Shown piece after piece: positions 7,498 to 62,835 of a DNA stretch of 64,000 bases. Below the pieces are notes generated by a model. It was not told the origin of the DNA and did no database searches. It saw only the letters and a program-made list of their open reading frames with translations. Position 1 is the stretch's first letter, and each line of letters begins with the position of its first letter. The position numbers and the translations under genes are program-made. The stretch comes from a virus, in IMG/VR virus record IMGVR_UViG_3300046698_000540, positions 1 to 64,000 of that record; one strand, written 5' to 3'.

Positions 7498-8037
7498 CTA
7501 TTCCGCGGATACCTCCCTGGTGGAGACTACCCGACTGATCGTTGCATAATTGGCAGCACAATTGCTGCGTATAGCGTCAATCAGATTATAGACCGATTGC
7601 AGATGGTCTGTGCGGTTCTGGTGGAGCTGAGCATCGGGGTGCATTCTGGCGCGCGCCTTTTTTTCGGTTATCGTGCCTCCGGAAACCGTGGAAAGACGGG
7701 CATCCACGAGCTTATCCACCTGGCGTTTGTGCGCCTCCAAATCGTTCCAAACCAGAGTGGCCTGCTCGTTGGCGTAGGACTGCATGGCCGTCCAGTACCC
7801 TAATTCGTCGGCCAGATCGTCGGAACCCATCGAAGAAAGATTCGCCGGCAAGGTCCTGAACGAGGCAGGATCGTCCTTGTTGACAGGCTTTGGAAACGAA
7901 GGAAACCCATGCTTCAGAACAGAATCATACGCCTTGCGGCCTTCTTCGGTGGTGGGCGCCAGCGGAGGCTCGGGCGCTTGTTTCCTCAGTTCTGGAATTG
8001 GGTTATCCCCAGGCTTAAACGGAACTCTTTTTGCCAC
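7498..8037 (-). CDS. UvsY-like recombination mediator (tentative)
   Basis: Helical protein with TITEKKARARMHPD motif, in the RecA module. GTG start after AGGTGAAC. Confidence 0.45.
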   Translation of the reverse strand: MAKRVPFKPGDNPIPELRKQAPEPPLAPTTEEGRKAYDSVLKHGFPSFPKPVNKDDPASFRTLPANLSSMGSDDLADELGYWTAMQSYANEQATLVWNDLEAHKRQVDKLVDARLSTVSGGTITEKKARARMHPDAQLHQNRTDHLQSVYNLIDAIRSNCAANYATISRVVSTREVSAE

Positions 8038-8045
8038 GTTCACCT

Positions 8046-8939
8046 TCACTTGATCTGTACCAGCTTGGAATATGTGCTGGTAGCGAAGCATGTATTCACC
8101 CAAGGACATTCTTGTGCCCGTTGCACCACTCCCGAGCGGCAAATTCTTTCGGGCAGCCGCTTATCCTTGTGAGCCCGATCAATGTCCACCAGAATCTTTC
8201 GGAACTGGGCCCACTGATCGAGATCCAACCTCAGCACGATCTCCTTCACCAGTTGGGTGTTCTTGCACTCATAAATCAGGTGGCAGGCCTTCAGGTCCAA
8301 TCCCGCCATGTAGACGGTCATCTGGACAGCGTGCTCCGACTGCGGCTCGCTGTGAAGCATCCTCCAGTACTCATCCTTGATGGACTTGATGTCCACCAGA
8401 ACAGGCTCTCCAGCAAACCTCCACTGGCCGCCATTCGACAAAACTTTGAATACGAAACCACCGCTACTCGTGAACTTCGGTGTGCCTTCTTCGTAGTACT
8501 CCAGCTCAACCTTGTTGACCGCCTCAGGGTACACAATGGCATCGGCGTGCCCCAAGACGCCCAACTCTGGATCGTGAACTGGAACCTCCCACCCAACACC
8601 CTTCAACGGATTACAAATTCCCGCTTGAATGAGATAGGCTTGCCAACGGCGATGAACCCATTGGCCGTTGTCCACGATGCGAAAAAATCGCGGGCTGAAA
8701 TCTTCGTGAAGCAACTCTTTCGGCCACTTCTCTATGGGAGCGAACCGCGTGAAAAAAAGCTCCCGCGGACAGATATGCTCCCACCCCTTCTTCCAAGGAA
8801 CCATGGAGGAGGGGTGCAGCCACCCCTCCACTTCCGTGGTCGCCTCGTTGCGCTGAAGCAGCATCCGGTCAACACGAGAAAGAATCGCGTCTCCGGAGGA
8901 TGCCTTGAGCGAATCTATAATCGTTTTTAAGCCTGGCAT
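8046..8939 (-). CDS. Cas4-like PD-(D/E)XK exonuclease
   Basis: HPSS ... ICPR ... GHADAI ... VDIKS ... QMTVYM ... C..CPW...C (1+3 Cys arrangement). Confidence 0.8.
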   Translation of the reverse strand: MPGLKTIIDSLKASSGDAILSRVDRMLLQRNEATTEVEGWLHPSSMVPWKKGWEHICPRELFFTRFAPIEKWPKELLHEDFSPRFFRIVDNGQWVHRRWQAYLIQAGICNPLKGVGWEVPVHDPELGVLGHADAIVYPEAVNKVELEYYEEGTPKFTSSGGFVFKVLSNGGQWRFAGEPVLVDIKSIKDEYWRMLHSEPQSEHAVQMTVYMAGLDLKACHLIYECKNTQLVKEIVLRLDLDQWAQFRKILVDIDRAHKDKRLPERICRSGVVQRAQECPWVNTCFATSTYSKLVQIK

Positions 8940-8945
8940 TTTGGA

Positions 8946-9047
8946 AAGAGCGGCCAAGACAGAGCAGCGGAAATTAGCGATCCACTTCCCAGATCAAACG
9001 TACAGATCTTGCTTCAATGGGGCCGCTGCTCTGTCTTGACCGCTCTT
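8946..9047 (-). CRISPR. permuted single-spacer crRNA-like element 1 (type I-G/I-U-like half repeats)
   Basis: Minus strand: AAGAGCGGTCAAGACAGAGCAGCGG-CCCCATTGAAGC-[36-nt spacer 9010..8975]-ATTT-CCGCTGCTCTGTCTTGGCCGCTCTT. Confidence 0.75.
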
Positions 9048-9053
9048 ACTCCT

Positions 9054-9812
9054 CTAACGCTTCCTACCGGGCGCCTTTTTCTCCCCGCCCTTTGGCTTGC
9101 GGGGCACCAGCCTGGCCTTGCCCGATTTCGTAACCTTCACATCCGCTTCGCCGGTGTGAAGGACATGAACCACCTCCGCGCCGGTGGCTTCCTCCGCCTT
9201 GGGCTGTGCCCCGCGGCCGCGCTTCTTCGGAGGCGCCGGCAACCCCTTCTTGCGCGCCTTTTGTTCCTTGAACTCGCCGCAGGCGCACTCGGGATCAACA
9301 CATTCTTCCGTGTTCACTTCCGTCGTGCCTTCCTTGAACAGGTGAAGGTGCCCGCATGTGCATGCCAAACCCTGCTCCAAAGGCAACTCCTGCTGCAATT
9401 CCTCGATCATGAGACGGCCGCTCCAACCACGCACATCGTCCAGGAATGCGATGATCGCCTTGGCCAGGATGTCTGTCGTGATCTTGAAGGACACTGTGGC
9501 ACCGGAGCCGTCCAACTTCGTCGCCGCGAAACTTTTCACCGAACAGGACGGAATATGCAACAGCGCGTCTTTTTCCGCCGGTGTACCTGGTAGAGGATAA
9601 AACGAAACCCGCGCCGCCTCGATGTCGTGGTCAAAACCATGCGACGTAAATTCCGTCAGGGCGCCGTTTTTCCTGTACAGCTCCCCATTGCCCAATTCTT
9701 TGGCCAGCACTTCGCTCAATGCGCCCTCGATGGGAATCGAGCTGACCAGTTTCTCTCCTGTGCTCCTGAAACCCGTCGTACCTGTGACGGATGCTTCAAA
9801 AATTTCTAACAT
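9054..9812 (-). CDS. hypothetical protein with Cys cluster and basic tail
   Basis: CTCGH ... CVDPECACG; SD GGAG. Confidence 0.7.
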   Translation of the reverse strand: MLEIFEASVTGTTGFRSTGEKLVSSIPIEGALSEVLAKELGNGELYRKNGALTEFTSHGFDHDIEAARVSFYPLPGTPAEKDALLHIPSCSVKSFAATKLDGSGATVSFKITTDILAKAIIAFLDDVRGWSGRLMIEELQQELPLEQGLACTCGHLHLFKEGTTEVNTEECVDPECACGEFKEQKARKKGLPAPPKKRGRGAQPKAEEATGAEVVHVLHTGEADVKVTKSGKARLVPRKPKGGEKKAPGRKR

Positions 9813-15353: not shown

Positions 15354-15713
15354 TCAATATCTCCGCTTGCCGGTTTTTGCCTGCGCGCCTCCTTTGAATG
15401 TGGTCGATGCCGGTTGAGCCTCGCCGGTCCTCTCGTGAAGAGACCTGCGAACGTCGATCGACTGTCCTTCGATCTCGTGAGAAACGAAATCCTTGGCCCT
15501 GAGGAGGGCCTTTTCCAGGGTTTCGTCCGGTCGAACGTCCGTCGCCATTCCCGCGTCTACGCGAGCTGACTCATAGTTGCCGAGATTCAGAGTCAACCCG
15601 CATGAAAAGAAAACCCGATCCGGAATCCCTGTGTTCACGGGCCCCAAGCCGCCTTGCATGCGCAAACGCTCAGCCGCCACCAGGGATTCCTGTCCCGCCT
15701 TCGCTTTTCCCAT
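15354..15713 (-). CDS. hypothetical protein
   Basis: GLTLNLGNYESARVDAG, a motif common in phage hypotheticals. Confidence 0.65.
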   Translation of the reverse strand: MGKAKAGQESLVAAERLRMQGGLGPVNTGIPDRVFFSCGLTLNLGNYESARVDAGMATDVRPDETLEKALLRAKDFVSHEIEGQSIDVRRSLHERTGEAQPASTTFKGGAQAKTGKRRY

Positions 15714-16443
15714 GTTCACCTTTCCTTGCGTAACTTGGCACAGGCAAATTCGGTGTCACCCGCGCCAACAATCCATGTTCAGTAGAAACCGTATACAACG
15801 CCGGGTAAATCCCCAACGGCCGCAAATCGTCCCAGGATGCTTTCACCTGCGCGAGAAGCCCAATTTTCTCAAAGCTCACCGGAGGTCTCAAATCGAACCC
15901 GGCGAAAACTTTCATCAGCATCTCCACCTGATCCTGAGTCCAGAGGCGAGTCATGATGGCCCTCGCCCCTTCCTTACCTCGCCGGTCTTTGTACAGGGTG
16001 TCCGGGAGAACTCCGTCCCTCACCCAAAGCTGAACGGTTTTGGTTTGCTTTCCCAAGCGGCGCGCCAACTCCTTGATGGTGTACATCGCCACGGCATACC
16101 TCTTGCCGACCATTTTATAGATCGGCCGCGGAGGCTTCGGAATCGACTGCAGGCAGGTGGGGCAATACAGGTGACCTGGCGATCTGCTGCTCTTAGGCGG
16201 GGGAGGGCCTACCACCTTTCGGATTTCTTCCTCCAGCTTGCGGCGCCGCTTGTATGCCGCACCGGCGCGCTTTTTGGCCGCTTCCTTGTACGCGGGATCC
16301 GTTGCGTAGCGGTTTTTTTTCGCCTTCGACAGATCCTCGGCGTGCTCGTCGTTGTAATTCTTGTGATAATCGAGCATCTTCTTTCGGGAAGCATTCTTCT
16401 CGTCTCGCTCCTCCCGAACTTTCACGATATTGGGCACGGCCAT
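15670..16443 (-). CDS. MerR-like HTH DNA-binding protein
   Basis: YTIKELARRLGKQTKTVQLWVRDGVLP ... RLWTQDQV. Confidence 0.75.
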   Translation of the reverse strand: MAVPNIVKVREERDEKNASRKKMLDYHKNYNDEHAEDLSKAKKNRYATDPAYKEAAKKRAGAAYKRRRKLEEEIRKVVGPPPPKSSRSPGHLYCPTCLQSIPKPPRPIYKMVGKRYAVAMYTIKELARRLGKQTKTVQLWVRDGVLPDTLYKDRRGKEGARAIMTRLWTQDQVEMLMKVFAGFDLRPPVSFEKIGLLAQVKASWDDLRPLGIYPALYTVSTEHGLLARVTPNLPVPSYARKGEHGKSEGGTGIPGGG

Positions 16444-16452
16444 AAAAACCTC

Positions 16453-17088
16453 TTATTTCAGCAGCTTAGGCAGGAGAGCGTAGGTGGGGTCCGGCTTATC
16501 CAGAATCGCCTCCAACTCGGATGGAGATATCAATTGCGCCAGGCATAGACCGTCCACCTTATCTGAGTTGACCTCTTCGACGATCTCCACGCCCATGTCC
16601 CGCAATTGCTTGCGATTCTTCCACAGGAATTTCTGAAACAAATCCCCGCAAGTGGTGATACGCAAATCTACCGCAGCGTCCCACAGCTTCTTCTTTTTCA
16701 GAAGCGTTTCCAGCTTCTCCGGATTCGGCCGCCAGGACCTTTTCTCCTGAATCGTGAGCTGGCCCAGGCCGGGATACTCGAACAGCCTGTGCTGATTCTT
16801 GTCCCCTGTGGGGGAGCCTTCCTCCCGGCGCATTTGAAGGCCGTAGTTTTCCTCTTCCTTGTCCTTGATCTTTTCCAGGAGTTTTGCAATGCGCTTCGCC
16901 ATCGCATCGAGGACGATGTAGAGCGGCACCAGCCGGTTTGTGGGAATAACCGCGACCTCACCGGCCTCCACCAGAGCGATCAACTGCTTAGGCGTGGAAA
17001 CCAGAGCCACTTCCGCGCCGGTCCCTTTCAAGTCTTGAAGCACATCTTCAGACACAACTTCAACCGTCACTGCCGTTTTCTTTGCCAT
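16453..17088 (-). CDS. hypothetical protein
   Basis: Start after GGAAAGGTGAAC; first gene after a promoter. Confidence 0.7.
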   Translation of the reverse strand: MAKKTAVTVEVVSEDVLQDLKGTGAEVALVSTPKQLIALVEAGEVAVIPTNRLVPLYIVLDAMAKRIAKLLEKIKDKEEENYGLQMRREEGSPTGDKNQHRLFEYPGLGQLTIQEKRSWRPNPEKLETLLKKKKLWDAAVDLRITTCGDLFQKFLWKNRKQLRDMGVEIVEEVNSDKVDGLCLAQLISPSELEAILDKPDPTYALLPKLLK

Positions 17089-17203
17089 GTTCACCTTTCC
17101 TGCCCCCACCTTCCCGGCGCCGTTCGGAGTAAGCTGCCTCGAAGGGACGCGCGCTTCTAGCCCTACCGTTTGGCCCGGCACCAAGAAAATGGGGGGTAAT
17201 TTA

Positions 17204-17232
17204 ATGATAGTATATTCTGAAGCCTTTGTAAA
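17204..17232 (-). promoter_or_regulatory. sigma70-type promoter
   Basis: TTTACA-N17-TATCAT, preceded by GGCGACC. Confidence 0.75.
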
Positions 17233-17241
17233 GGTCGCCTA

Positions 17242-22768: not shown

Positions 22769-22864
22769 ATGTTCACCAGTCCCCACCCAACCAAACCCCG
22801 TCCTACGATTCGGGGTCCCGGCAGGCTGGCGTAGGAACCAGTTGATGTGGGTGGGGATGATTTA

Positions 22865-22893
22865 AGTATATAGTATTCTGAACTTTTTGTAAA
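22865..22893 (-). promoter_or_regulatory. sigma70-type promoter
   Basis: TTTACA-N17-TATACT, preceded by GGCGACC. Confidence 0.8.
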
Positions 22894-22899
22894 GGTCGC

Positions 22900-24057
22900 C
22901 TACTCCTGCGTGTCCTTCAGAATCACTTGCGCGCCTTGGATCGCTTCTCTGATCGCTTCTGCCTCCATGCCCCCCGGATCTGCACCAGCTTGATTATCAC
23001 CGTAGCGCACACGATGAAACCTAACCCTACATCCGACCAGTTCATAAAGCTCTCTGTCTCCTTTTCTGCCGGCCTGGTCGTTATCCAGGAACGAAACGAT
23101 ACGACGATCCGCCGTCAGTCGAACCAACAGGTTAGCCTGCTCCTGCGAGGGCGAACTTCCGAGTAAGGCCAGCGGAAGAACCGGGAAGCCCATGCTGTCA
23201 CGAAAATCGCGTGTAGCCTGCCACACCATGAGGGCATCCACCACTCCTTCCACCACCACTGCCACGAACCCTGACGGCTGCTTCAAGTATGCCGCTTCCA
23301 ATTTTCCTGACTGAAACCAATGTGCTCCAAAAAGATGCTTCGCCTTCCGGAATCCTTCTTGCGCGTGCTCCCGGTCCACCTGAATTCCTCCACAGCTTTC
23401 ACAGCGGTACGTGTTGTTGTGGCTCTCCAAAGGATACCCGCATGAATGAACTCTGGACCAGAGATTCTTGTACTTTACATCGTGCTCGTGCATCAACCGG
23501 GTGGCTCCGCCCACGGTACCCACCAGTTTTCCCTCAGCATCCCTGACCGGGAATATAATCCTCTGCGTCTTCCTGTCGAAACCCAGACCCCAGGCCCTGC
23601 AGGTTTCCAACGTCACCCCGCGGTCTAAAAGCCTCTGCGCCACCCGGCCCTGGTAGGGGGCCAGCCAGGATTCCGGAAAAATCCGGTAAGGCTCCCGAGC
23701 GGCGCCGGCAAAATGGCTCTCAAAGGGGGGAACACTGGCGGCGATCGCCTCTGGATCCTGGTACAGCAGCGCGGCCAGGCGCTCCAGGGCCTTGGAGCAA
23801 TCGTAGCCTAGTTCTCGTTCCAGGAGGCGAAAGAAGTGCTCCACAGGGCCTTTCCGGCCGCAAGCCAGGCAATTCCAGGTGCCTCCGTTCTCCTCGTCGT
23901 CCGGTTTGACCCCGAGCGAGGGCGTCCGGTCCACCTGGTGGGAATGGCCGGACACCGCCGCGAAAGGACATCGCATGGTGACGTTACTCGACCGGATCAT
24001 ACCCGCCATGGGGGGATTTACCAGCGCCAGCAGCTCCACCACATCATCCACGTTCAC
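22900..24057 (-). CDS. DnaG-type primase (Zn finger + TOPRIM)
   Basis: CPF ... H ... D.TPS ... WNCLACG, RIIFPVRD, VVEGVVDA, FLDNDQAG, DPG. Confidence 0.88.
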   Translation of the reverse strand: MNVDDVVELLALVNPPMAGMIRSSNVTMRCPFAAVSGHSHQVDRTPSLGVKPDDEENGGTWNCLACGRKGPVEHFFRLLERELGYDCSKALERLAALLYQDPEAIAASVPPFESHFAGAAREPYRIFPESWLAPYQGRVAQRLLDRGVTLETCRAWGLGFDRKTQRIIFPVRDAEGKLVGTVGGATRLMHEHDVKYKNLWSRVHSCGYPLESHNNTYRCESCGGIQVDREHAQEGFRKAKHLFGAHWFQSGKLEAAYLKQPSGFVAVVVEGVVDALMVWQATRDFRDSMGFPVLPLALLGSSPSQEQANLLVRLTADRRIVSFLDNDQAGRKGDRELYELVGCRVRFHRVRYGDNQAGADPGGMEAEAIREAIQGAQVILKDTQE

Positions 24058-29249: not shown

Positions 29250-29439
29250 TTCCTCCTGATCTTTTGGCTGCTCACCAACTCGAAAGACTCGACCTTGACG
29301 TCCACCCCCGCCACATCCGCCATTTCCAACTGCTTTCGCAACTGGCCCTCTTCCGAAGGCTTTTCGCCGGCGTCAACGAAAGTTTCCTCTGTCAGAAGCA
29401 CAACCGCGCGATACTTCGTAACTAAAACGTTTTCCATGT

Positions 29440-29613
29440 TCACCTTTCCATAGCGCAGGCAGGACACCTGTACTCAATTATCTCCTTGCCATAACCTAAG
29501 GGCACCACAACAGCACAAGTGTGACCACACTCCAATTCAAGAATCACCGCCTCCTGGTCTGGAGCCATAATCCCTAGGGGGTCTCCTTTAGACCTACGCA
29601 AAACTTTCTTCAT
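29440..29613 (-). CDS. 57-aa Zn-ribbon protein; absent from the ORF track
   Basis: MKKVLRRS ... LECGH ... YRCPACAMER, SD AAGGAG. Confidence 0.55.
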   Translation of the reverse strand: MKKVLRRSKGDPLGIMAPDQEAVILELECGHTCAVVVPLGYGKEIIEYRCPACAMER

Positions 29614-31846: not shown

Positions 31847-31960
31847 TGATTGGGCTTCTTCGACTCATTGAAGCGGAAATTTTGCTTGCTCGCCTATCAA
31901 AACCGGAGCCACAGCCTTGCTTCAATGGGGCCGCTCCAATGAGCCGAAGAAGCCCAACCA
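31847..31960 (-). CRISPR. permuted single-spacer crRNA-like element 2 (type I-G/I-U-like half repeats)
   Basis: Minus strand: TGGTTGGGCTTCTTCGGCTCATTGGAGCGG-CCCCATTGAAGC-[38-nt spacer 31918..31881]-ATTT-CCGCTTCAATGAGTCGAAGAAGCCCAATCA. Confidence 0.75.
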
Positions 31961-34039: not shown

Positions 34040-34119
34040 GGAGCCGTCTCTCCAAGCCGTCCGACCGCGTATAAATAGTAAAGAGAAATCAGGAGAGAAG
34101 ATAAAAAGGAAGTGGTTTT

Positions 34120-34148
34120 ATTATATAGGATCGAAAAATCTTTGTAAA
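34120..34148 (-). promoter_or_regulatory. sigma70-type promoter
   Basis: TTTACA-N17-TATAAT in the AT-rich gap between structural and replication modules. Confidence 0.85.
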
Positions 34149-34171
34149 GGGCGCGCTTTTCCGATCAAGGG

Positions 34172-51737: not shown

Positions 51738-52100
51738 CTACATCGAACGACCGTAGCCGGCATGGCCGCCAGGAAGCGCCGCGTGACCAAGGATGTTGAA
51801 ATCCTGGCCGGACTTTTTTCCTTTTCCTTTTCCATGGTGGGGGGTCCTCCATCCTCTGAATCCACCACCTTTGGCACCTGAATTGTCTCTTTCCAATTCA
51901 CTGATGTGCCCCAAGTGATGCAAGGATCCCCCGTATTTGCTTTTCTGGTACACATTACCTGTGGGCTTATGCAAAAACTGGCCGCCGGGATGACTTTTAC
52001 CCTGCTGCTCAAACTCATGAGCGGGTAACATCTCGCCGCCTTTTCCGTGACCGCTACCTTGGACGTGGTACTCGTTTAATTTACCTCTTGGAAATCCCAT
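51738..52100 (-). CDS. small basic His/Gly-rich protein with SGQDFNILGHAALPGGHAGYGR tag
   Basis: Shared C-terminal tag; N-terminus duplicated with 53167..53553. Confidence 0.8.
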   Translation of the reverse strand: MGFPRGKLNEYHVQGSGHGKGGEMLPAHEFEQQGKSHPGGQFLHKPTGNVYQKSKYGGSLHHLGHISELERDNSGAKGGGFRGWRTPHHGKGKGKKSGQDFNILGHAALPGGHAGYGRSM

Positions 52101-52129
52101 TTCAAACCTCCAAAACCATTGTGTCGGCC
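52061..52129. repeat. direct repeat, copy 1 (with 53502-53582)
   Basis: 49-bp identity 52081-52129 = 53534-53582, plus flanking similarity. Confidence 0.9.
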
Positions 52130-52131
52130 CG

Positions 52132-52644
52132 CTAGGCCGGTCCTACTACCGTCTTCTCCGAAGCCAGAGCCTCGGCAATTCTCTTCTTCAACCTGGTCAA
52201 CTCCGTCTGCACTTCCCGGTCCATTGCCACCTTGTCCACGGACTTTTTGGCGCCAGGGTGCCTCACTCGCGGCCCAAAAAACTGATCTCCGCTGGCGAAC
52301 TGGAAAGCCAGCACCTTGGCATGAACCGCCTGGATAGCGTGCCTTTTGGTCCCACTCTGCAACAGCGGCCAAATTTTCGCCGCTCGTGGGTCAATGTTCC
52401 GAATCAGGATCTTCAGCTTCGCGTGCGGCTCGTCCGTCTCCACTTCGCCTTTCCACCCGGCGCGCAATTTTCCCGGCGAAGGCTGGTTGGGATCCTTCGA
52501 CACCGGCGTATATTTCCGGTAGAGCTTTTCCAGGATGGCTGAGGACTCGACGGCGACACCCTTCAGCCGGGTGAACTTCAGCATGTTCTCCATCCGTTTC
52601 AGAACGGCGTCCATGCTGACCGAGATTTTGATGCCGTCGATCAT
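52132..52644 (-). CDS. HK97 gp10-like neck protein
   Basis: YTPV ... GKLRAGW ... GTKRHAI ... KVLAF ... VRHPG. Confidence 0.75.
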   Translation of the reverse strand: MIDGIKISVSMDAVLKRMENMLKFTRLKGVAVESSAILEKLYRKYTPVSKDPNQPSPGKLRAGWKGEVETDEPHAKLKILIRNIDPRAAKIWPLLQSGTKRHAIQAVHAKVLAFQFASGDQFFGPRVRHPGAKKSVDKVAMDREVQTELTRLKKRIAEALASEKTVVGPA

Positions 52645-52645
52645 T

Positions 52646-53170
52646 TCAAACCTGCGCGATCGCGGAAAAATCTTTGACTGAGTTCATGGCCGCCATGGCT
52701 GCCGGCGTAATGGCGTCCGTGTTGCCGCTCCACCACCAGTCCCAGGCCATGCTGGCGCGCATCGCAGCGATAAAAGAAAAAGCCCGCTCCTTCACCGCCG
52801 CTTCTTCCAAACCGAAGAACGGGTTGCTGTGAAGAACATCGCCGTCAAGGTTGGCGTATTCCTCCACCGATCCGAGCAGCCAGCACCTGAACGTCTTGCA
52901 TGTGGGCGGTTTTACGCCTTGAATTTCACAGGAGTGCTTGCCTTCCGTTCGGCTCAAAAAAGCGCAGCGCCCGTGAGACCTGGTGTTAAGAACCGGCAGA
53001 CTACCCGGCCTGTCTTGGGCTACCTCCACAGCCTCCACTCGGAGCAAAAAATCCGCTGTGGTGTTCAGGTGATCTGCTACCTCTTCCAAGTTGGGAACAG
53101 GAACCCCGTGCGCTACGTAGCAGCAGGCTCCGCACTGCTGGCAGAGTTCTTCGGTCCAGGGGAACTTCAT
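52646..53170 (-). CDS. YkgJ-family CxxCxxCC cysteine-cluster protein
   Basis: CQQCGACC ... CAFL ... CEI..VKPPTCKTFRC. Confidence 0.85.
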   Translation of the reverse strand: MKFPWTEELCQQCGACCYVAHGVPVPNLEEVADHLNTTADFLLRVEAVEVAQDRPGSLPVLNTRSHGRCAFLSRTEGKHSCEIQGVKPPTCKTFRCWLLGSVEEYANLDGDVLHSNPFFGLEEAAVKERAFSFIAAMRASMAWDWWWSGNTDAITPAAMAAMNSVKDFSAIAQV

Positions 53171-53553
53171 CGGCCGTAACCCGCATGCCCACCGGGAAGC
53201 CCCGCATGACCCAGGATGTTGAAGTCCTGACCGGATTTGCGACCAAATGGATTGTGCCCCGGCTTGCTGTGCGATTTGCCGGGATGTTTTTTGCCAAACT
53301 TGCCATGCTTGCCACCGGCGTTATGGTCGCCTGTTACCGGATCGAAGGTGCCTCCGTTCATAACATCATTGGTATAGTAGTGACCTAACTCACCGTGAAT
53401 GGTGTACCTCTCACCCGAGGAGTTTGGCCCAAAGTACTTTTCTGCTTCCTTATGCGAACCGAATGAGGGAGTCCCCATAGGCCCGTGCTTACTACCGCGT
53501 GGGACGTGGTACAAGTACTCGTTTAATTTACCTTTACCTCTTGGAAATCCCAT
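53167..53553 (-). CDS. small basic His/Gly-rich protein with SGQDFNILGHAGLPGGHAGYGR tag
   Basis: Shared C-terminal tag. Confidence 0.8.
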   Translation of the reverse strand: MGFPRGKGKLNEYLYHVPRGSKHGPMGTPSFGSHKEAEKYFGPNSSGERYTIHGELGHYYTNDVMNGGTFDPVTGDHNAGGKHGKFGKKHPGKSHSKPGHNPFGRKSGQDFNILGHAGLPGGHAGYGR

Positions 53554-53582
53554 TTCAAACCTCCAAAACCATTGTGTCGGCC
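53502..53582. repeat. direct repeat, copy 2
   Basis: See 52061-52129. Confidence 0.9.
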
Positions 53583-54469
53583 AGCAAGTCGATGAAGTTC
53601 TCTACCTTCAGAGAAACTGGATCGCTCATCGCGGCCAGCATGTTCCAGTTGACCGCCGCCAGGATGAAGTACCACGTCCCGGTCGGCAGCAGAGTGTACT
53701 CCATCCACAATTCGTTCTTGGCCATCTGCGCTTCCCCTGTCGAAATCCAGGGGCCTGAAACGCGCTCGAAGGCCAGCGTGTCGGAGTAATAGTCGTAGAT
53801 CGTGCGGATCACCTGCCAGGTTTCAAGAGGCGCCCGTGGATTCTGCGAAGCGTAGAAGCGAAGGTATGCGAGATCGCCTGTGTCCATCCGGGCCCAGTCC
53901 AAAACCAGGCGCCCGAAAGGAACGGCGATGTTCTGGAATCCTCCTGTGTCGGCCGGCGGATTCACCCTGGCGTTCGGATAGTAGAGGTAGGAAACCGACA
54001 GGAGTTTCGGCTTCGGAGGCGGCGGCGCAATCTGCACGGGAACCTTGGCGTGAATAAGCCTACTGTCCCGGACCAGGTTGCCAATCACGATGTCCCCGCT
54101 CACATTGTCTTGTGCGGCGATGCGATCGCGCTGGTAGTCGTACTCGTCCCGCAGCTCGTTAGCGGCGGTAATGAGCATCTGTGAATTGCCCGTCTTGTCT
54201 GCGGAAAAATTCGCGCCTACGGAAACTCGGGTATCTAGAGCATATTCCAGCGCCTTATCCCGGGCGATGCGGACCTTCGCCAGCAGCAGGATGAGCTGTT
54301 CTTCCTCCACGGGAACTGTTGCCCACGTGTAAGACTTGTTGTGCTGGCGAAGGGCCTCGAACAGGGCCTCGTTCAGGAGAGCATTGTCGAAACGCCGCTC
54401 TCCCGTGAGCCAGGAGATGTCTCCAAGCTGGCCCCGCATCGTTTCCCGTAATGCTGAAATAGTGGCCAC
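53555..54469 (-). CDS. head-tail adaptor-like protein with C-terminal Fn3/Ig-like domain
   Basis: LRETMRGQLGD ... FDNALLN; position after capsid genes; GTWYFILAAVN ... S.PVS. Confidence 0.6.
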   Translation of the reverse strand: MATISALRETMRGQLGDISWLTGERRFDNALLNEALFEALRQHNKSYTWATVPVEEEQLILLLAKVRIARDKALEYALDTRVSVGANFSADKTGNSQMLITAANELRDEYDYQRDRIAAQDNVSGDIVIGNLVRDSRLIHAKVPVQIAPPPPKPKLLSVSYLYYPNARVNPPADTGGFQNIAVPFGRLVLDWARMDTGDLAYLRFYASQNPRAPLETWQVIRTIYDYYSDTLAFERVSGPWISTGEAQMAKNELWMEYTLLPTGTWYFILAAVNWNMLAAMSDPVSLKVENFIDLLADTMVLEV

Positions 54470-54481
54470 TGCACCATCCGA

Positions 54482-55078
54482 TTATTCGTAGTACGGGTAA
54501 GCCAGTTCCTCCCGTATCAAGCCGTCGCGAACACTCTTCGGCACCTCGCACACCACGTCCTTCGTGAAGTAGTAGCGGTACGGCCCAATGAACCTGCTGC
54601 CGGTGAACCTGGGCCTCACCTTCACTACCTTTTCCTCCGAAACCAGAGCCTCATCGATGGGGCCAATCTGGATCTTCGTGCGAAGGTCCGCCCTGGAAGC
54701 CGGCCCGACCGGGGGAGGAGCTTGTGTGCTTGGATCGGTGAACACCGGCTTGGGCGCCGGCGGAGGGTCGTTGTAAAGGTTGGACGTTGTCGTAAGGCCC
54801 TGCGGAGGAAGCGGGATGTCGTTTGCCCGCGCGCCTTCGGCGAGCTGATCCATAACCGAACTGTTGAAAGCGGCCGGGGGGACTTCTCCCTTGAACGGCT
54901 TGCCTTCCTCGGTCTTTCCCGTGATTTCCCGCCCTCTTACAGAGTGTGACGTATCGGGTTCAGAATTCGTGTTTCTCGTGCCAGCAGGCAGCGGAACTTC
55001 AATCATTCGTTTCGGCTGCGGAAGTTTTGTCCGCTCCGGAACTGCCTCTGGAATATCCAGCGTTGTGTTCTTTGCCAT
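54482..55078 (-). CDS. hypothetical head-region protein
   Basis: Pro-rich; C-terminal YYFTKD ... VPKSVRDGL. Confidence 0.6.
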   Translation of the reverse strand: MAKNTTLDIPEAVPERTKLPQPKRMIEVPLPAGTRNTNSEPDTSHSVRGREITGKTEEGKPFKGEVPPAAFNSSVMDQLAEGARANDIPLPPQGLTTTSNLYNDPPPAPKPVFTDPSTQAPPPVGPASRADLRTKIQIGPIDEALVSEEKVVKVRPRFTGSRFIGPYRYYFTKDVVCEVPKSVRDGLIREELAYPYYE

Positions 55079-55159
55079 GGTTTTACCTTTCCTCGTTGCA
55101 ATCACCGCCCCTTTCGGGCGATACCTGATTGTACCGAAGCAGTGTTCAAGTTTGCGCTG

Positions 55160-55618
55160 TTACGCGCGGATGCGAATGCGCACGGCCATCTGAGGCGTAG
55201 CCACTCCGCCAGCGGAATGCTCGACGGAGAAGGTCAACACATCGTTCAGTTTGGGTGGCGCCTTCGTAGCGTCCAGTGTGAGAGTGAACGGAACGTACGC
55301 AGCCTGTGACACGGAGGCCGTGGTCAGGGAAGCCAGAACATCGGTCCCTGTGCCATCGCCCTTCCGGTTATACAGCTTGAACGTAACGTAGTTCGATCCA
55401 TTTGCGGCGATCGCAGCCTGCGCAATGACCTCAACCGAATCGATCTGAATGGGATCCGCGGCGGCGCCGCTTCCCTTCAGCATTTTGTCAAGGACCGTTT
55501 CCGCATCCGTGCCCGCGGTTCCCCGCGCGGCGATGGAATACTGCTTTTCTATGAAGTTGCGAACGGCCCCCTTATCGACAGGAACCGTTCCGACATAACC
55601 GAGTGCACCTATAGGCAT
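55160..55618 (-). CDS. capsid decoration-like protein
   Basis: Beta-rich 152 aa directly after the major capsid gene. Confidence 0.55.
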   Translation of the reverse strand: MPIGALGYVGTVPVDKGAVRNFIEKQYSIAARGTAGTDAETVLDKMLKGSGAAADPIQIDSVEVIAQAAIAANGSNYVTFKLYNRKGDGTGTDVLASLTTASVSQAAYVPFTLTLDATKAPPKLNDVLTFSVEHSAGGVATPQMAVRIRIRA

Positions 55619-55663
55619 TTTTCTCCTTTCATTTCGACCAGACTTTGACCAAACGCCCTGGCG

Positions 55664-56605
55664 CTACGCCGACACGATCGGCAGAATGTTGTCGCCGTTG
55701 ATGATCTTCGACCCCATGATCGAATACCACCCAAGCGAATGCTTGCGGCCGAAGTCCTCGACGCCGTTGTCCCGCATCTCGACCGGAAGCCCGACCGCCC
55801 ATGCGTAACTGTTGTCGCCCATCAGGACCGCTTTGTACAGATTGACGGAGCCTGCGCCGGCCGTAACCAGGGTGGCATCGTAAGCCGGATCGGTGGAGAG
55901 AACCGCGCCATTGTTCATGTGCCCGGTGCCCACAAAACGAACATCGTCGAAGCGGCCGAGTTCGCCGCGGAAGAGCTGTTCGGTGGCGCCGTAAGTCGAA
56001 GCCGACACCCATTCCGGATCGCGCTTCAGGCTGGAAGCCTGATGCGGGTGAACGAAACAGGCGAAAAAGTCCCCATTGAACTTGGGAACGTTGAGGGTGT
56101 ACAGACGCTCGACACCGGCGCGCAGGTCGTCGATGCGCAACGGCTGGGAAATGCTGGACAGCGGCCAGGCGCCGCCCGAGCCGATGGAGTTTGCCGATGC
56201 CATCACAGCATTGCGCAACAGCAAGTCGGTGACACGGGCGTAGTCGCGCCCCAACTGGTACGCGGCCTCGGTCAACACATCGTCGTATGCGGACTGGAGC
56301 AACAGTTCCGAAATGGCAATTGCGTTGCCATACTCGGTCACCGTTACAAAGACCTGCGAGGCGGTCATGGCCTGCGTGGTCATGTTGACGCCTTCGGTGA
56401 GGGGTCCGCCGAGCGCCAGGTTCTCGTAGATCGTGAAATAAATGGTCAGGCCGGGCTGCCGGGTCAGTTCGTCCTTGATGACGGCGAACTGCTCGAACCG
56501 CATGGCCGGAAGCGCGCGGTGCTGAATTTCGCGCGAATAGACGTTCAGAATTGCTTGCGGCAAACCGGTTACCACACCGGCTGTCGCCGTACCCGTAAGT
56601 GCCAT
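55664..56605 (-). CDS. major capsid protein (N4-gp56-like)
   Basis: RFEQFA ... PG.TI.F..Y.NL ... LTEG ... EYGNAI ... VHPHQ ... GELGRFDDVRFV ... DFGRKHSLGWY. Confidence 0.9.
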   Translation of the reverse strand: MALTGTATAGVVTGLPQAILNVYSREIQHRALPAMRFEQFAVIKDELTRQPGLTIYFTIYENLALGGPLTEGVNMTTQAMTASQVFVTVTEYGNAIAISELLLQSAYDDVLTEAAYQLGRDYARVTDLLLRNAVMASANSIGSGGAWPLSSISQPLRIDDLRAGVERLYTLNVPKFNGDFFACFVHPHQASSLKRDPEWVSASTYGATEQLFRGELGRFDDVRFVGTGHMNNGAVLSTDPAYDATLVTAGAGSVNLYKAVLMGDNSYAWAVGLPVEMRDNGVEDFGRKHSLGWYSIMGSKIINGDNILPIVSA

Positions 56606-56638
56606 TGACGTAGCTCCTTAAGCAAAGTCCTGCGCCTT

Positions 56639-57382
56639 TCAGCGCGGCTGCTTCATTGGGAGCCCTGCATCCTGGAAAATCTTCGCTTTGATATCTTTCT
56701 TTTTCTGATCCCACTCTTGAGGGGACATGTCCCGCCAAGCTTCTAACCCGCCTGCTGTTACGGCTGCGTCACCTGAGGGTGTGCCCGGAAATACCGGTTT
56801 TGGCAGAGCTTCACGAAGTGGCGCCCCAAGTTCCTTTCTTACGCGCTCAGCTTCTCTGTCGGCGATTTCCTTGTACTTCGCCTTCGCGCGCTCGAAACTT
56901 GCCTGTAGCTCCTCGGGTGTGTTGCCGGCCACCATTTCCGGGATCAGCTCTTGTGTACTCTGGAGGAGGCCCGTGCGCTGCGCCTCAAGCCGATCTCTGC
57001 GGCGCTGCTCCTCATTTTCCTTGCGCTGATTGTCCAGCGCGTCGTCCATTGCCTTACTGAACTGGTCCGTCATGCTGGAAACCTGGCCCGTGAGGGCCGC
57101 GATTTGTTGTTCCAGCGTCTGAGCTTTCCGGCTTCCATCCTGCGCGGTCTCGAGGGCCGCGCGGGCGTCCGCCAGTTCCCGCTCCTTTTTCTGCAGGTCG
57201 GCTTTGTGACGTTCGATCTCGGGATAAAGCTTGGCCTTCTCATCCCGTCTGGCTTCTGCAAGCCTGCGTTCTACCTCTTCCGCCGAGATGCCCCCATTAC
57301 CGGCTGCTGCCTGATGCGGCGGGGCTCCTGCGGGTGATCCTGGTTGTTCTCCGGCTGCTGGTGTGACCTGTGATGTTGCCAT
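56639..57382 (-). CDS. scaffolding protein
   Basis: Coiled coil ARRDEKAKLY ... LIPEMVAGNTPEEL, directly before the major capsid gene. Confidence 0.8.
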   Translation of the reverse strand: MATSQVTPAAGEQPGSPAGAPPHQAAAGNGGISAEEVERRLAEARRDEKAKLYPEIERHKADLQKKERELADARAALETAQDGSRKAQTLEQQIAALTGQVSSMTDQFSKAMDDALDNQRKENEEQRRRDRLEAQRTGLLQSTQELIPEMVAGNTPEELQASFERAKAKYKEIADREAERVRKELGAPLREALPKPVFPGTPSGDAAVTAGGLEAWRDMSPQEWDQKKKDIKAKIFQDAGLPMKQPR

Positions 57383-57422
57383 GGTTTCCTTATCCTTCGT
57401 GAAAATTCTTCACCTAGCTGAA

Positions 57423-57608
57423 CTACGCCAGGCGGGGATCCACTGCCACCCGAACCAGGGCGTCCGGATCGAGCGAGTTGGTGGTGGCCCGCGGAGTGGC
57501 GTCCGGGCGATACCCGGTCTTCCGCTGACTCTTGTTGGCGCCCGCTTCCACCCCGATGCCCCGTTCGTCATTCACGCGGCCCGGCTGAGGGTTAATCGCT
57601 TTCTGCAT
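57423..57608 (-). CDS. small hypothetical protein
   Basis: SD AGGAGG; between portal and scaffold. Confidence 0.6.
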   Translation of the reverse strand: MQKAINPQPGRVNDERGIGVEAGANKSQRKTGYRPDATPRATTNSLDPDALVRVAVDPRLA

Positions 57609-57666
57609 GTTGCCTCCTTACTGTTCATACACCCTTTCGGGTCCAAAACACAACTTCATGCTACCA

Positions 57667-59241
57667 CTACACTCCCGAGGCCTGCGCTCCTGCCTGTTTT
57701 TCGGCTTTGGCTGAGGACTCCTCGGCTGCCGCCGCCTCTGTCTTTGGCGGCTTTTTTCCGGGCGGCTTGGGACCTCCCGCACCGCCTGCTCCACCACTCA
57801 CACCAGCTTCCTGAAGATTCACGGCGTGGTTCAACTGCAACTCGTTTTCTTGCTCTGTTGCCTTTTGAAGCTCTTCGTCCACTTCGTCCAAAACCTTTTG
57901 TGCGTCGCTCACATCCAACTCGGCTGGCGCGATGTCATCGTGGATCAATTCCCGCAAGATCATGGCCCGGGAAAGCAGTTTCATCTGCTGCATGACGGTC
58001 AGCTCGTTCAACCGAAGCTGCTTGTCGCGCGGCAGGGGGTCCGGCCACTTCACGCCGCTGTAGTAAGGCAGGGGACGGCCATTGGCCTTGTAGTCTCCCA
58101 AAATTTCCCGGACGCGGAGAATTTGGTAGTTCACGTACTGGATGCCCTTCGTATACGTGAGCCGCTTCTTCTTCATGTGCTCCAGGATCGGAGCGAACTG
58201 GATGGCCAGGGCAACGCCAGACGTATTCGAGATCGGAACGTCGCCCCCAAAGGCAACCTTCGGCATGGAGCCAAGCTGGAACAACGTGTCCTTCAGATTC
58301 ATCAGGTACTCGCGTGCCGCCGCCAAATCGCCCTGCAGCTCCAGGTTCTCCACCCTGGCGTCCTTCGGCAGACCACTCCACACCTTACGGGCGCCTTTTT
58401 GCAGCGTGGAAGCCTTCGCGCCATAAATCACGGTCACCGGCGCCGCGTGGTAGTTGATGATGTCGCCCAAGTCGGTGGTCTTCTCGTTGAACTCCCGATT
58501 CGAGTCCACCACCTGGCCGATGTCCGACATGCCGAAAAATTCCGTGCCCACCATCAGGTTCGGAATATGCGTGAACGGAATTTCCCCCAAAAGGTTCGGC
58601 TTGGAATTGCTGATGGGCTGGCCGTCCCGCAGTTCCCAAACCTCATCCTTCGTCCAATACTGCCCCGCGACGTAGGTCCGAACCCTGACGCGGCCGAAAG
58701 CATTGCTCACCACTTCCGATTCGGGCCACTGCACCAGCAAACCGGAAAATCCGCGGTCGGAATTTCTGAAAAAAATCGGGAAAACAAATTCGCTTGGAAA
58801 GACGGTCAACTTTACGCGATCGCCAAAGACCGCATCGTTGTCGATCCCGACGTTTACCCAACAGTCGCCTGTCACCCCTCCGACTTGGCCCATCTGGAAA
58901 CCAAGCTGCCCAATGTGGTTTTTTTCCCACTCCTCGTTCAACAGGTCTTCGGCTGCCTGATAGGCGCTGCCGCGAAAATTCGCGTGGATCGTGAACTGAT
59001 TGCCGAACAGATATTGCGAGTGCTTGTCCACGAAAAGCTGCACGAAGTTCGCGGTGGTCACAGGCTCGCCGGCCTCGGGAACATAGTTCCAGTGGTTGCC
59101 CTTGTAGAAGTTCCAGAGCCTGCCGTATTGCAGAATGCGGGCGGCGTTCTGATGCCAGATGTCTATTTCGTGCCCCGACGTGATCGGGTAGTCCCGGTTC
59201 ACGCGATTCAGCGTGAACCTGGTCATGTCGCCCATGCTCAT
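57667..59241 (-). CDS. portal protein (SPP1-like)
   Basis: WNFYKGNHW ... N.LGEIPFTHIPN ... GMSDI ... NTSGVAL ... WPDPLPRD. Confidence 0.9.
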   Translation of the reverse strand: MSMGDMTRFTLNRVNRDYPITSGHEIDIWHQNAARILQYGRLWNFYKGNHWNYVPEAGEPVTTANFVQLFVDKHSQYLFGNQFTIHANFRGSAYQAAEDLLNEEWEKNHIGQLGFQMGQVGGVTGDCWVNVGIDNDAVFGDRVKLTVFPSEFVFPIFFRNSDRGFSGLLVQWPESEVVSNAFGRVRVRTYVAGQYWTKDEVWELRDGQPISNSKPNLLGEIPFTHIPNLMVGTEFFGMSDIGQVVDSNREFNEKTTDLGDIINYHAAPVTVIYGAKASTLQKGARKVWSGLPKDARVENLELQGDLAAAREYLMNLKDTLFQLGSMPKVAFGGDVPISNTSGVALAIQFAPILEHMKKKRLTYTKGIQYVNYQILRVREILGDYKANGRPLPYYSGVKWPDPLPRDKQLRLNELTVMQQMKLLSRAMILRELIHDDIAPAELDVSDAQKVLDEVDEELQKATEQENELQLNHAVNLQEAGVSGGAGGAGGPKPPGKKPPKTEAAAAEESSAKAEKQAGAQASGV

Positions 59242-59250
59242 ATTAGAGCC

Positions 59251-59670
59251 TCACTGTCCGTATCCTGCGTGCCCGCCTGGAAGTCCTGCGTGACCTAAGA
59301 CGTTGAAATCCTGACCAGACTTGTGCGTTCTGCTCCCTCGCTCGCCTATGACAACTGGCAGTTTTGCCATTCCCATCTCGCGTCCTATAGCCAGACGGTG
59401 GTGCCCGTCTTCTATATGGTAGTGTCCTTCACCCTCGTGGCGCAGAATGATAGGTGCCATACCGTGCTTGCGTACGTGCTCCTTGAACTTTTCCAAATAG
59501 GGGCGCTCGAATTTCTGAATGGAAGCGACCCTACCTGCATCCTGCAACTTCATCAGGTGTGCCTTGGTGGCCATAAAGCCCGAGGCACCTTGAGACTCGT
59601 GGATTGCTCGAGCAGCTCTGTGCGCTTCGCGCCGCTCGTGATCATCCCGTGCTTCTTCATCAACCGTCAT
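59251..59670 (-). CDS. ParB/Sulfiredoxin-like domain protein with SGQDFNVLGHAGLPGGHAGYG tag
   Basis: HGMAPIIL ... IEDGHHRL ... G...LPV; shared tag; ATGA coupling to the glycosyltransferase stop. Confidence 0.8.
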   Translation of the reverse strand: MTVDEEARDDHERREAHRAARAIHESQGASGFMATKAHLMKLQDAGRVASIQKFERPYLEKFKEHVRKHGMAPIILRHEGEGHYHIEDGHHRLAIGREMGMAKLPVVIGERGSRTHKSGQDFNVLGHAGLPGGHAGYGQ

Positions 59671-60905: not shown

Positions 60906-60974
60906 GCCTCTCCAATCGAATGCGGGCGGCGCTTTTTTGGGGCGCCGCCTACACGGAGGTTAGCAGGTTTTCGG

Positions 60975-61913: not shown

Positions 61914-61950
61914 GGTTTTCTGCTTACCTCCTCTTTTCGTCAATGAAGCG

Positions 61951-62154: not shown

Positions 62155-62157
62155 AGC

Positions 62158-62355: not shown

Positions 62356-62364
62356 GGTTCCTCC

Positions 62365-62826: not shown

Positions 62827-62835
62827 AAAACGCTC

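What the first reader, a model, noticed from the sequence alone, without database searches (positions are those of the whole stretch)
8939..9054. Element 1 sits between the Shine-Dalgarno and the ATG of the Cas4-like gene
The ATG at 8939 has no adjacent SD, but GAGGAG (9054-9049) lies 1 nt before the 102-nt hairpin and the ATG is 6 nt after it. That gives an ideal 7-nt spacing once the hairpin is looped out. Inference: the element was inserted into the ribosome-binding site, and nuclease translation may depend on its folding or processing, making it a possible sensor of host Cas activity.
Basis: partly seen in the sequence, partly recalled or inferred. Interest (0 to 1): 0.7.

Follow-up and report, generated by a model that had tools for sequence, protein, structure and literature searches.

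The report
CRISPR-like hairpin splitting a ribosome site
A phage has a 102-base CRISPR-guide-like RNA hairpin exactly between the ribosome-binding sequence and the start codon of a nuclease gene; the long stem probably just brings the two back together, as in two known phage T4 genes, and nothing tested supports a CRISPR-sensing switch.

Summary
On the minus strand, the upstream gene's stop TAG (9056-9054) overlaps GAGGAG (9054-9049). One base later a 102-nt hairpin begins (9047-8946; 25-bp stem, 52-nt loop, z = -6.1). Six bases after it lies ATG 8939 of a Cas4-like nuclease gene, which has no Shine-Dalgarno (SD) sequence of its own.

The hairpin is a circularly permuted type I-G CRISPR unit: back half of the repeat, 36-nt spacer, front half of the repeat, closed by arms that pair across the spacer. 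A second copy lies at 31960-31847, and 17 more sit on other viral and bacterial contigs with strongly covarying arms. This scan found the class before on other DNA.

A syntenic relative without the element has stop-SD-ATG at the same junction, so insertion into a ribosome-binding site is plausible. A self-closing insert is also about the only kind such a tight junction could tolerate.

No other family member splits a ribosome-binding site, and element 2's downstream gene has its own SD. I found no spacer target. The arrangement is therefore best read as a hairpin-bridged ("split") ribosome-binding site like T4 genes 38 and 25, or as stop-start coupling. The Cas-sensor idea remains untested speculation.

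The parts
9054..9812 (-). Upstream 252-aa ORF of unknown function; stop TAG at 9056-9054
   Evidence: ORF list. No Pfam or PHROG hit. Homologue in L157 at 53% and in L156 at 98% identity, in conserved synteny.
9049..9054 (-). GAGGAG Shine-Dalgarno-like sequence overlapping the upstream stop codon
   Evidence: Composite anti-SD energy -8.6 kcal/mol. Only 3.7% of random windows are as strong. The equivalent TAAGGAG sits at the same junction in L157.
9023..9047 (-). 5' arm of element 1 (25 nt), ending in the conserved GCGG, the 3' strand of the repeat stem base
   Evidence: The arm helix covaries across 20 elements.
9011..9022 (-). CCCC linker plus AUUGAAGC, the 3' end of a type I-G repeat. Predicted Csb2 cut between 9019 and 9018, leaving an 8-nt 5' handle
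   Evidence: Identical to the 3' end of the repeats in over 70 of the sampled CRISPR arrays. Csb2 cuts 4 nt 3' of the hairpin and gives an 8-nt handle (PMC9638904). The cut site here is inferred.
8975..9010 (-). 36-nt spacer-like loop segment
   Evidence: Length lies within the natural array range of 35-38 nt. No target in the phage's own genome beyond chance, in viral contigs or in genome contigs.
8946..8974 (-). AUUU plus the 3' arm (25 nt) beginning with CCGC, the 5' part of a type I-G repeat
8940..8945 (-). 6-nt linker UCCAAA between the hairpin and the start codon; no purine-rich SD
8046..8939 (-). Cas4-like PD-(D/E)xK nuclease gene (297 aa), start ATG 8939
   Evidence: PHROG 1706, 2506 and 1990 at E 2e-17 to 1e-13. 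Invariant C57, D133, K185, Q206, Y210, C267, C278 and C284, and a shared N-terminus, in 9 homologues. Weak profile hit to PDB 4ic1_A.
31847..31960 (-). Element 2: second permuted type I-G unit (30-bp arms, 38-nt spacer). It is not within a ribosome-binding site; the downstream gene (ATG 31821) has its own GGAGAAG

Best explanation
Element 1 is a phage-borne, circularly permuted type I-G CRISPR repeat-spacer unit. Its layout is: arm, GCGG, CCCC, AUUGAAGC, 36-nt spacer, AUUU, CCGC, complementary arm.

It lies in the few bases between the junction SD (GAGGAG, overlapping the upstream stop codon) and the AUG of a Cas4-like nuclease gene, inside a long minus-strand operon. The element closes on itself through a 25-bp stem, so its two ends, and with them the SD and the AUG, come back to about 7 nt plus one helix end. 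This makes a hairpin-bridged ('split') ribosome-binding site of the kind shown for T4 genes 38 and 25.

The position is best explained by constraint. In an 18-nt stop-SD-start junction, the SD-AUG spacer is the only place an insertion can go without breaking a gene or the SD, and only a self-closing insert keeps the downstream gene translated.

Shown: the anatomy, the family membership of the element, the lack of a proximal SD, the strength and non-randomness of the distal SD, and the element-free syntenic junction in a relative.

Inferred: that ribosomes actually use the distal SD across the stem, and that the host's Csb2 recognises the unit.
For: - Anatomy and coordinates.
- The loop edges equal the two halves of a 36-nt repeat found in arrays in over 70 of the sampled genome contigs. 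In Bryobacterales locus L065 these arrays lie next to Cas3g, the Cas3-extension protein, Cas2 and Cas4g/Cas1g.
- The geometry (stem, 4 nt, 8-nt handle) fits the published Csb2 cleavage (PMC9638904).
- Seventeen further permuted units on other contigs have arms of 9-24 bp and spacers of 27-42 nt, all but one 36-42.
- The arm helix is 87.8% paired against 57% in shuffles (0 of 500 reach it), and 12 of 12 variable pairs show compensatory changes.
- Proximal SD -1.5, composite -8.6 kcal/mol. Chance of so strong a site is 3.7% per window. The spacing is typical. The arrangement is unique in the record.
- The start codon is confirmed by homologue N-termini.
- L157 has the same synteny with stop-SD-ATG and no element. 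L156, a 98% relative, keeps the element and both flanks, with a U-G to C-G change in the stem.
- There is a split-RBS precedent in T4 genes 38 and 25 (PMC3014915).
Against: - The only comparison that retains the element is 98% identical, so conservation of the SD / hairpin / AUG layout carries little weight.
- In L157 the junction SD serves another small gene rather than the nuclease gene.
- The partition-function fold pairs the SD core GGA, and the G of the AUG with the next codon (unpaired probability 0.01-0.2). The site may therefore be closed at equilibrium.
- The T4 precedents bridge 22-27 nt, not 109 nt.
- A near-perfect 25-bp duplex is a likely RNase III substrate, and Csb2 would cut the loop. 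Either would sever the SD from the AUG.
Confidence: 0.5

Rival explanations
1. Stop-start coupling rather than SD bridging. The stem places the upstream UAG and the downstream AUG side by side. The resting fold hides the SD core and the AUG. Ribosomes finishing the upstream ORF melt the base of the stack and re-initiate at AUG 8939, so the nuclease is made only as a fraction of the upstream protein.
For: The stop overlaps the SD and lies 7 nt before the stem. The fold pairs GGA with UCC, and the last codons of the upstream ORF with the AUG region. In relative L157 the nuclease gene is coupled directly (TAGATG).
Against: The short extension helices are weak predictions. One pair is lost in L156, where GCGGU replaces GCGUU. 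Re-initiation across a 102-nt structure has no precedent that I know of.
Confidence: 0.2
2. GAGGAG is a relic and the start is SD-independent. The insertion disabled the old ribosome-binding site, and the nuclease gene is now translated weakly from an A/U-rich, poorly structured start region, or barely at all.
For: About 5% of the phage's ORFs have equally weak SDs. The sequence just after the AUG is A/U-rich and predicted to be open from +10. The element is absent at 71% divergence, so it may be recent.
Against: The gene is intact and conserved. The distal SD is perfectly placed at the helix base, which is unlikely by chance. The 6 nt before the AUG are partly paired in the ensemble.
Confidence: 0.12
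3. Binding or cleavage of the unit by the host's type I-G Csb2 (predicted cut between 9019 and 9018), or by RNase III on the 25-bp duplex, changes how the SD and AUG are presented. Synthesis of the Cas4-like nuclease would then report on or respond to host Cas activity.
For: The unit keeps every conserved part of the I-G repeat around the Csb2 site. A cut in the loop would leave the SD and AUG on two RNAs held together by the stem. The phage record encodes no Csb2 of its own, so any processing would be by the host.
Against: None of 17 other units, nor element 2, sits in a ribosome-binding site. Neighbouring genes of other units are unrelated: SSB-like, major head protein, integrase. There is no evidence of processing or of a spacer target.
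Confidence: 0.08
4. The element's role here is that of an RNA of its own, a guide or decoy for the host's type I-G system, released from the operon transcript. The effect on the nuclease gene is a tolerated side effect with no translational function.
For: Spacer lengths across the family stay near the natural range. Several other units look like stand-alone genes with a T-run after the 3' arm. No sigma-70-like promoter lies near element 1, so it must be cut out of a longer RNA. The two operon-embedded copies have the longest arms in the family, 25 and 30 bp.
Against: No protospacer was found for elements 1 and 2 or for two other units. This rival is compatible with the best explanation rather than excluding it.
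Confidence: 0.1

Closest known systems
Split (hairpin-bridged) ribosome-binding sites of phage T4 genes 38 and 25 (Nivinskas 1999; Malys and Nivinskas 2009; reviewed in PMC3014915)
   Same: A strong SD lies too far from the AUG in linear sequence. An intervening stem-loop brings them to a working distance: 5 and 11 nt in T4, about 7 nt here. Both lie at an intercistronic junction of a phage operon.
   Different: The bridged distance is 109 nt rather than 22-27 nt. The intervening structure is itself a recognisable genetic element (a CRISPR repeat-spacer unit). There is no mutational evidence, and the layout is conserved only in a 98% relative.
Virus-borne mini-CRISPR arrays (Medvedeva 2019, PMC6858448; review PMC11656645)
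   Same: A phage without cas genes carries one spacer flanked by host-type repeat sequence.
   Different: There are no two direct repeats. Only the 3' half of a repeat lies upstream and the 5' half downstream, joined by long complementary arms, which amounts to one permuted repeat. No target in related viruses was found.
RNA anti-CRISPRs / solitary repeat units (Camara-Wilpert 2023, PMC10651486)
   Same: Phage-encoded mimic of a CRISPR repeat that could engage the Cas6-type enzyme and Cas7.
   Different: It is not a contiguous solitary repeat, and that paper's search rule needs full repeat matches. It carries a spacer-length loop. Element 1 has no promoter or terminator of its own.
crRNA-like regulators in cas loci (CreA, CreR, crlRNA; Shmakov 2023 preprint 10.1101/2023.03.03.530964)
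   Same: A repeat-like RNA that ties Cas protein binding to gene expression.
   Different: Those act in trans through partial spacer-promoter pairing. Here any effect would act in cis on translation, and no partial target beyond chance was found.

Membership tests
Type I-G CRISPR repeat-derived unit | 3' repeat end: stem base GCGG, 4-nt linker CCCC, 8-nt handle AUUGAAGC | tested here: met
   Exact in elements 1 and 2. Identical in over 70 of the sampled arrays. The layout fits the Csb2 cut 4 nt 3' of the hairpin with an 8-nt handle (PMC9638904).
Type I-G CRISPR repeat-derived unit | 5' repeat end xUUU-CCGC placed one spacer length (35-38 nt) after the handle | tested here: met
   AUUU-CCGC lies 36 nt (element 1) and 38 nt (element 2) after the handle. 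The array period is 72-73 nt.
Type I-G CRISPR repeat-derived unit | The repeat family lies next to type I-G cas genes | tested here: met
   L065 has Cas3g, the Cas3-extension protein, Cas2 and the Cas4g/Cas1g fusion upstream of the array. Only one locus was examined.
Type I-G CRISPR repeat-derived unit | Processed or bound by Csb2; spacer matches a target | tested here: inconclusive
   Processing cannot be tested here. No protospacer was found in the phage's own genome, IMG/VR, GTDB genomes, GenBank phages or the held loci.
Viral mini-CRISPR array | Two or more complete direct repeats flanking the spacer | tested here: not met
   There is no xTTTCCGC upstream and no CCCCATTGAAGC downstream of element 1. 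The flanks are complementary arms instead.
Solitary repeat unit / Racr | One contiguous repeat, usually with its own promoter | tested here: not met
   The repeat is permuted around a spacer-length loop. No sigma-70-like promoter lies on the minus strand between 7.5 and 12.5 kb (consensus scan only).
Split (hairpin-bridged) ribosome-binding site, T4 gene 38/25 type | Strong SD at a non-functional linear distance, with no proximal SD | tested here: met
   109 nt separate GAGGAG from the AUG. Proximal energy is -1.5 and composite -8.6 kcal/mol.
Split (hairpin-bridged) ribosome-binding site, T4 gene 38/25 type | A stable intervening structure reduces the spacing to about 5-11 nt | tested here: met
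   25-bp stem, z = -6.1. Residual spacing is 1 + 6 nt.
Split (hairpin-bridged) ribosome-binding site, T4 gene 38/25 type | SD and AUG are accessible in the folded RNA | tested here: inconclusive
   The ensemble fold predicts the SD core GGA, and the G of the AUG with the next codon, to be mostly paired. Such short helices are predicted unreliably.
Split (hairpin-bridged) ribosome-binding site, T4 gene 38/25 type | Translation falls when the stem is broken and recovers with compensatory changes; layout conserved in relatives | not testable with these tools
   Only L156 (98% identical) keeps the layout. L157 lacks the element.
Cas4-like PD-(D/E)xK nuclease | Nuclease core motifs plus a four-cysteine cluster | tested here: met
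   PHROG 1706, 2506 and 1990. Invariant D133, (D/E)-x-K185, Q206, Y210 and C57, C267, C278, C284. No Pfam hit. The PDB profile hit to 4ic1_A is only E = 0.099.

The most novel reading that the evidence does not exclude
The host's type I-G Csb2 (or RNase III) cuts the element inside the operon mRNA. The SD is then left on the upstream RNA and the AUG on the downstream RNA, held together only by the 25-bp stem. Translation of the phage's Cas4-like nuclease would become a direct read-out of host CRISPR RNA-processing activity, while the same cut releases a two-piece crRNA loaded with a phage-chosen spacer.
Probability: 0.08. Interest if true: 0.8.

Novelty: new variant of a known kind. Interest (0 to 1): 0.45.

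Why it matters
If the stem does bridge the SD and AUG, this is by far the longest natural split ribosome-binding site. It would also be the first in which the bridging structure is a CRISPR-derived RNA. It would show that self-closing RNA elements can settle inside ribosome-binding sites of tightly packed phage operons without silencing the next gene.

It also offers a natural construct for asking whether Cas6-type processing can be coupled to translation.

The larger point is the element family itself: permuted, stem-closed type I-G repeat-spacer units carried by many uncultured phages. I did not find that design in the papers read. It belongs to a neighbouring finding, and this scan had already met it on other DNA.

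Tried and rejected
- TTG 8957 as the start: rejected, because the homologues' N-termini align at ATG 8939.
- A known RNA family: no Rfam match at gathering scores. At relaxed thresholds there were only spurious long-hairpin miRNA matches far below cut-off. No tRNA or tmRNA.
- MITE or transposon: rejected. The arms differ completely between copies while the inner edges are conserved, and no target-site duplication was seen.
- Intrinsic terminator: no U-run follows the 3' arm of element 1.
- Self-targeting or regulatory spacer: the best partial matches in the phage (22 of 36 and 24 of 38) lie within the shuffle range.
- Protospacers: none in IMG/VR, GTDB genomes or GenBank phages for elements 1 and 2. 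None in IMG/VR for two other units.
- Host assignment: none of 1277 sampled type I-G array spacers hits this phage.
- A phage-encoded Csb2: none in the 100-kb record. The record is about 80% complete, and the TIGR02165 search had no positive control.
- A recurrent gene partner for the family: the neighbours are diverse.
The record holding L157 is not held.
Full report
**1. What is in the sequence**

The genes here run on the minus strand.
- A 252-aa ORF (9812-9054) ends with TAG at 9056-9054, and the stop overlaps GAGGAG (9054-9049).
- After one base (T 9048) comes a 25-nt arm (9047-9023), a 52-nt loop (9022-8971) and the complementary 25-nt arm (8970-8946).
- The linker TCCAAA follows, then ATG 8939 of a 297-aa ORF.
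- The arms pair perfectly apart from one U-G pair. The arm sequence occurs only here, and shuffles give 0 matches.
- The region folds at -65.7 kcal/mol against -43.1 +/- 3.7 for shuffles (z = -6.1).

**2. The downstream gene and its start**

The ORF matches PHROG families annotated as CRISPR/Cas-associated, exonuclease and Cas4-domain exonuclease (E 2e-17 to 1e-13). Pfam gave nothing.

Nine homologues (50-100% identical) share invariant nuclease-core residues: D133, K185 of a (D/E)-x-K motif, Q206 and Y210. They also share four invariant cysteines: C57, C267, C278 and C284. A profile of them touches PDB 4ic1_A only weakly (E = 0.099). From memory that entry is the Sulfolobus Cas4 SSO0001. 'Cas4-like nuclease' is therefore a fair name.

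Seven of the eight homologues begin, as called, at the same MPGLKTII-type N-terminus, and L4, I7, I8 and L11 are invariant. ATG 8939 is the start, not TTG 8957 inside the stem.

**3. Is the SD arrangement more than chance?**

I scored anti-SD duplex energies for 106 non-overlapping ORFs of the 100-kb phage record.
- The median for the best start is -6.2 kcal/mol.
- The 17 nt before ATG 8939 score -1.5, within the weakest 5%.
- With the hairpin removed the junction scores -8.6.
- Only 3.7% of random 17-nt windows on the gene strand are that strong.
- A 7-nt gap lies within the phage's usual 5-9 nt.
- A scan of every candidate start in the record for 'SD, stem of 9 bp or more, start' found no other case with a long stem. 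The rest are 9-11-bp chance stems at doubtful starts.

The arrangement is real and non-random.

**4. What the hairpin is**

A second element at 31960-31847 has 30-bp arms of unrelated sequence. Its loop edges are the same: GCGG-CCCCATTGAAGC on the 5' side and ATTT-CCGC on the 3' side.

Searching for these edges at spacer distance found true CRISPR arrays in many Acidobacteriota, Planctomycetota and Verrucomicrobiota MAGs. Their 36-nt repeat reads xTTTCCGC, 4 nt, 4-nt loop, 4 nt, GCGGCCCCATTGAAGC. Only the outer 4 bp of the stem are constant.

In a Bryobacterales locus (L065) such an array follows Cas3g, the I-G Cas3-extension protein, Cas2 and the Cas4g/Cas1g fusion. The repeat family is therefore type I-G.

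Published biochemistry says that Csb2 cuts 4 nt 3' of the repeat hairpin and leaves an 8-nt 5' handle (PMC9638904). That fits CCCC followed by AUUGAAGC.

Element 1 is thus the back half of a repeat, a 36-nt spacer and the front half of a repeat. The two half-stems are extended into long arms that pair across the spacer, which amounts to one repeat circularly permuted around a spacer. The predicted Csb2 cut lies between 9019 and 9018. That cut is an inference.

**5. The element belongs to a family**
- The same layout, with arms of 9-24 bp and spacers of 27-42 nt (all but one 36-42), occurs on 13 other viral contigs and 4 bacterial contigs.
- Across 20 aligned units the arm helix is 87.8% paired, against 57% in shuffles (0 of 500 reach it) and 36-49% when the partners are slid.
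- All 12 variable pairs show compensatory changes.
- A covariance model finds only elements 1 and 2 in the phage record. The minus strand scores 70-75 bits and the plus strand 12.
- All mismatches are G-U on the minus-strand RNA, so the structure is read as RNA in the direction of the genes.
- Papers on RNA anti-CRISPRs, viral mini-arrays and repeat-like regulators describe whole repeats or repeat-spacer-repeat units, not this permuted form.

**6. Was it inserted into a ribosome-binding site?**

Two relatives were recovered.
- L156 (98% identical nuclease) keeps the element and both flanks. It differs by a U-G to C-G change in the stem and one change in the spacer.
- L157 (71% identical) has the same order of seven genes but no element. 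There the upstream gene ends TAAGGAG, and five bases later an ATG opens a 60-aa gene (phrog_4624). That gene's stop abuts the nuclease start (TAGATG).

The stop-overlapping SD is therefore the normal junction signal in this lineage, and the junction is a variable site. This supports 'inserted between SD and start', but no empty SD-7nt-ATG(nuclease) site was seen.

A simple constraint explains the exact position. In an 18-nt stop-SD-start junction, the only place an insertion can sit without damaging a gene or the SD is the SD-AUG spacer. Only an insert whose ends come together keeps the next gene translatable.

**7. Does the family use this arrangement?**

It does not.
- Element 2 lies 33 nt after the upstream stop and 25 nt before a gene with its own GGAGAAG.
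- Among the other 17 units, downstream genes either have their own SD (for example L134, L137, L147) or show no composite SD. Several units end in a T-run, like stand-alone RNA genes.
- Their neighbours are unrelated: SSB-like, major head protein, integrase.

The split site is a peculiarity of this one copy, which argues against a designed Cas sensor.

**8. How it probably works**

The closest tested precedent is the split ribosome-binding site of T4 genes 38 and 25. There a hairpin shortens SD-AUG spacings of 22 and 27 nt to 5 and 11 nt, and stem mutations lower translation (PMC3014915). Here 109 nt would be shortened to about 7 nt.

Two cautions apply.
- The ensemble fold stacks extra short helices on the stem. 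These pair the SD core GGA with UCC, and pair the last codons of the upstream ORF with the AUG region (unpaired probabilities 0.01-0.2). Ribosomes ending at UAG 9056 may be needed to open the site, which would be stop-start coupling. One of these pairs is lost in L156, so the prediction is weak.
- A near-perfect 25-bp duplex is a likely RNase III substrate, and Csb2 would cut the loop. Either event would leave the SD and the AUG on separate RNAs held together by the stem. That step is inference from general knowledge, not a test.

**9. Guide or decoy?**
- No spacer target was found for elements 1 and 2 in the phage itself beyond chance, in IMG/VR, in GTDB genomes, in GenBank phages or in held loci.
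- Two other units' spacers found only themselves.
- None of 1277 sampled I-G array spacers hits this phage.
- The phage record has no Csb2. There is no sigma-70-like promoter near element 1, so the unit would have to be cut from the operon RNA by host enzymes.

The question stays open and is not decisive for this finding.

**10. Verdict**

The most likely reading (about 0.5) is a hairpin-bridged ribosome-binding site created when a permuted type I-G crRNA-like unit settled in the SD-AUG spacer.

Rivals:

| Reading | Probability |
|---|---|
| Stop-start coupling | 0.2 |
| SD-independent start with a relic SD | 0.12 |
| Processing-only role for the element | 0.1 |
| Cas-sensing switch | 0.08 |

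It is a new variant of a known trick and is carried by an element family that is itself the more interesting object.

**Limits**

Noticed in passing
window 17192-17241, 22853-22902, 34108-34157: Three copies of a 50-nt repeat. Read on the minus strand they contain TTTACA and, about 17 nt later, a TATACT/TATCAT-like box. They are probably the phage's own promoters driving the minus-strand operons that contain elements 1 and 2.
   Followed up: no
L157:2818-3000 (relative contig Ga0181538_10000708): At the junction where this phage has element 1, the 71% relative carries a 60-aa gene (phrog_4624, unknown function) whose stop abuts the nuclease start (TAGATG). The junction is a hot spot for small accessory inserts.
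   Followed up: partly
L156:3428-3858 (98% relative, Ga0182027_10061372): About 430 extra bases lie between the Cas4-like gene and the next gene, which are adjacent in the window. They open with AAGGTGAAC-ATG, so this is probably another small inserted gene.
   Followed up: no
G000 63900-100369 (beyond the window; loci L236, L237): Another first-stage note (e1-6029276) reports ten hammerhead ribozymes in this part of the phage. An Rfam search at gathering scores found no family there at all. I did not try relaxed thresholds or inspect the sites.
   Followed up: partly
window 8030-8050, 15706-15726, 17081-17101, 29430-29450: A recurrent start context on the minus strand, A(A/G)GGTGAAC followed by ATG or GTG (repeat family D6). 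It marks the phage's preferred SD and shows that the gene after the Cas4-like ORF starts at GTG near 8036, not at the longer TTG ORF start.
   Followed up: partly
L137, L139, L131, L151, L147 (other permuted units): In several other phages the 3' arm is followed directly by a run of T. The arm helix may double as an intrinsic terminator that sets the 3' end of a stand-alone crRNA-like transcript. The two operon-embedded copies in this phage lack the T-run and have the longest arms.
   Followed up: partly
window 51740-63237: Four diverged copies of a 74-nt segment and a 56-nt pair 1453 nt apart (repeat families D1 and D7).
   Followed up: no
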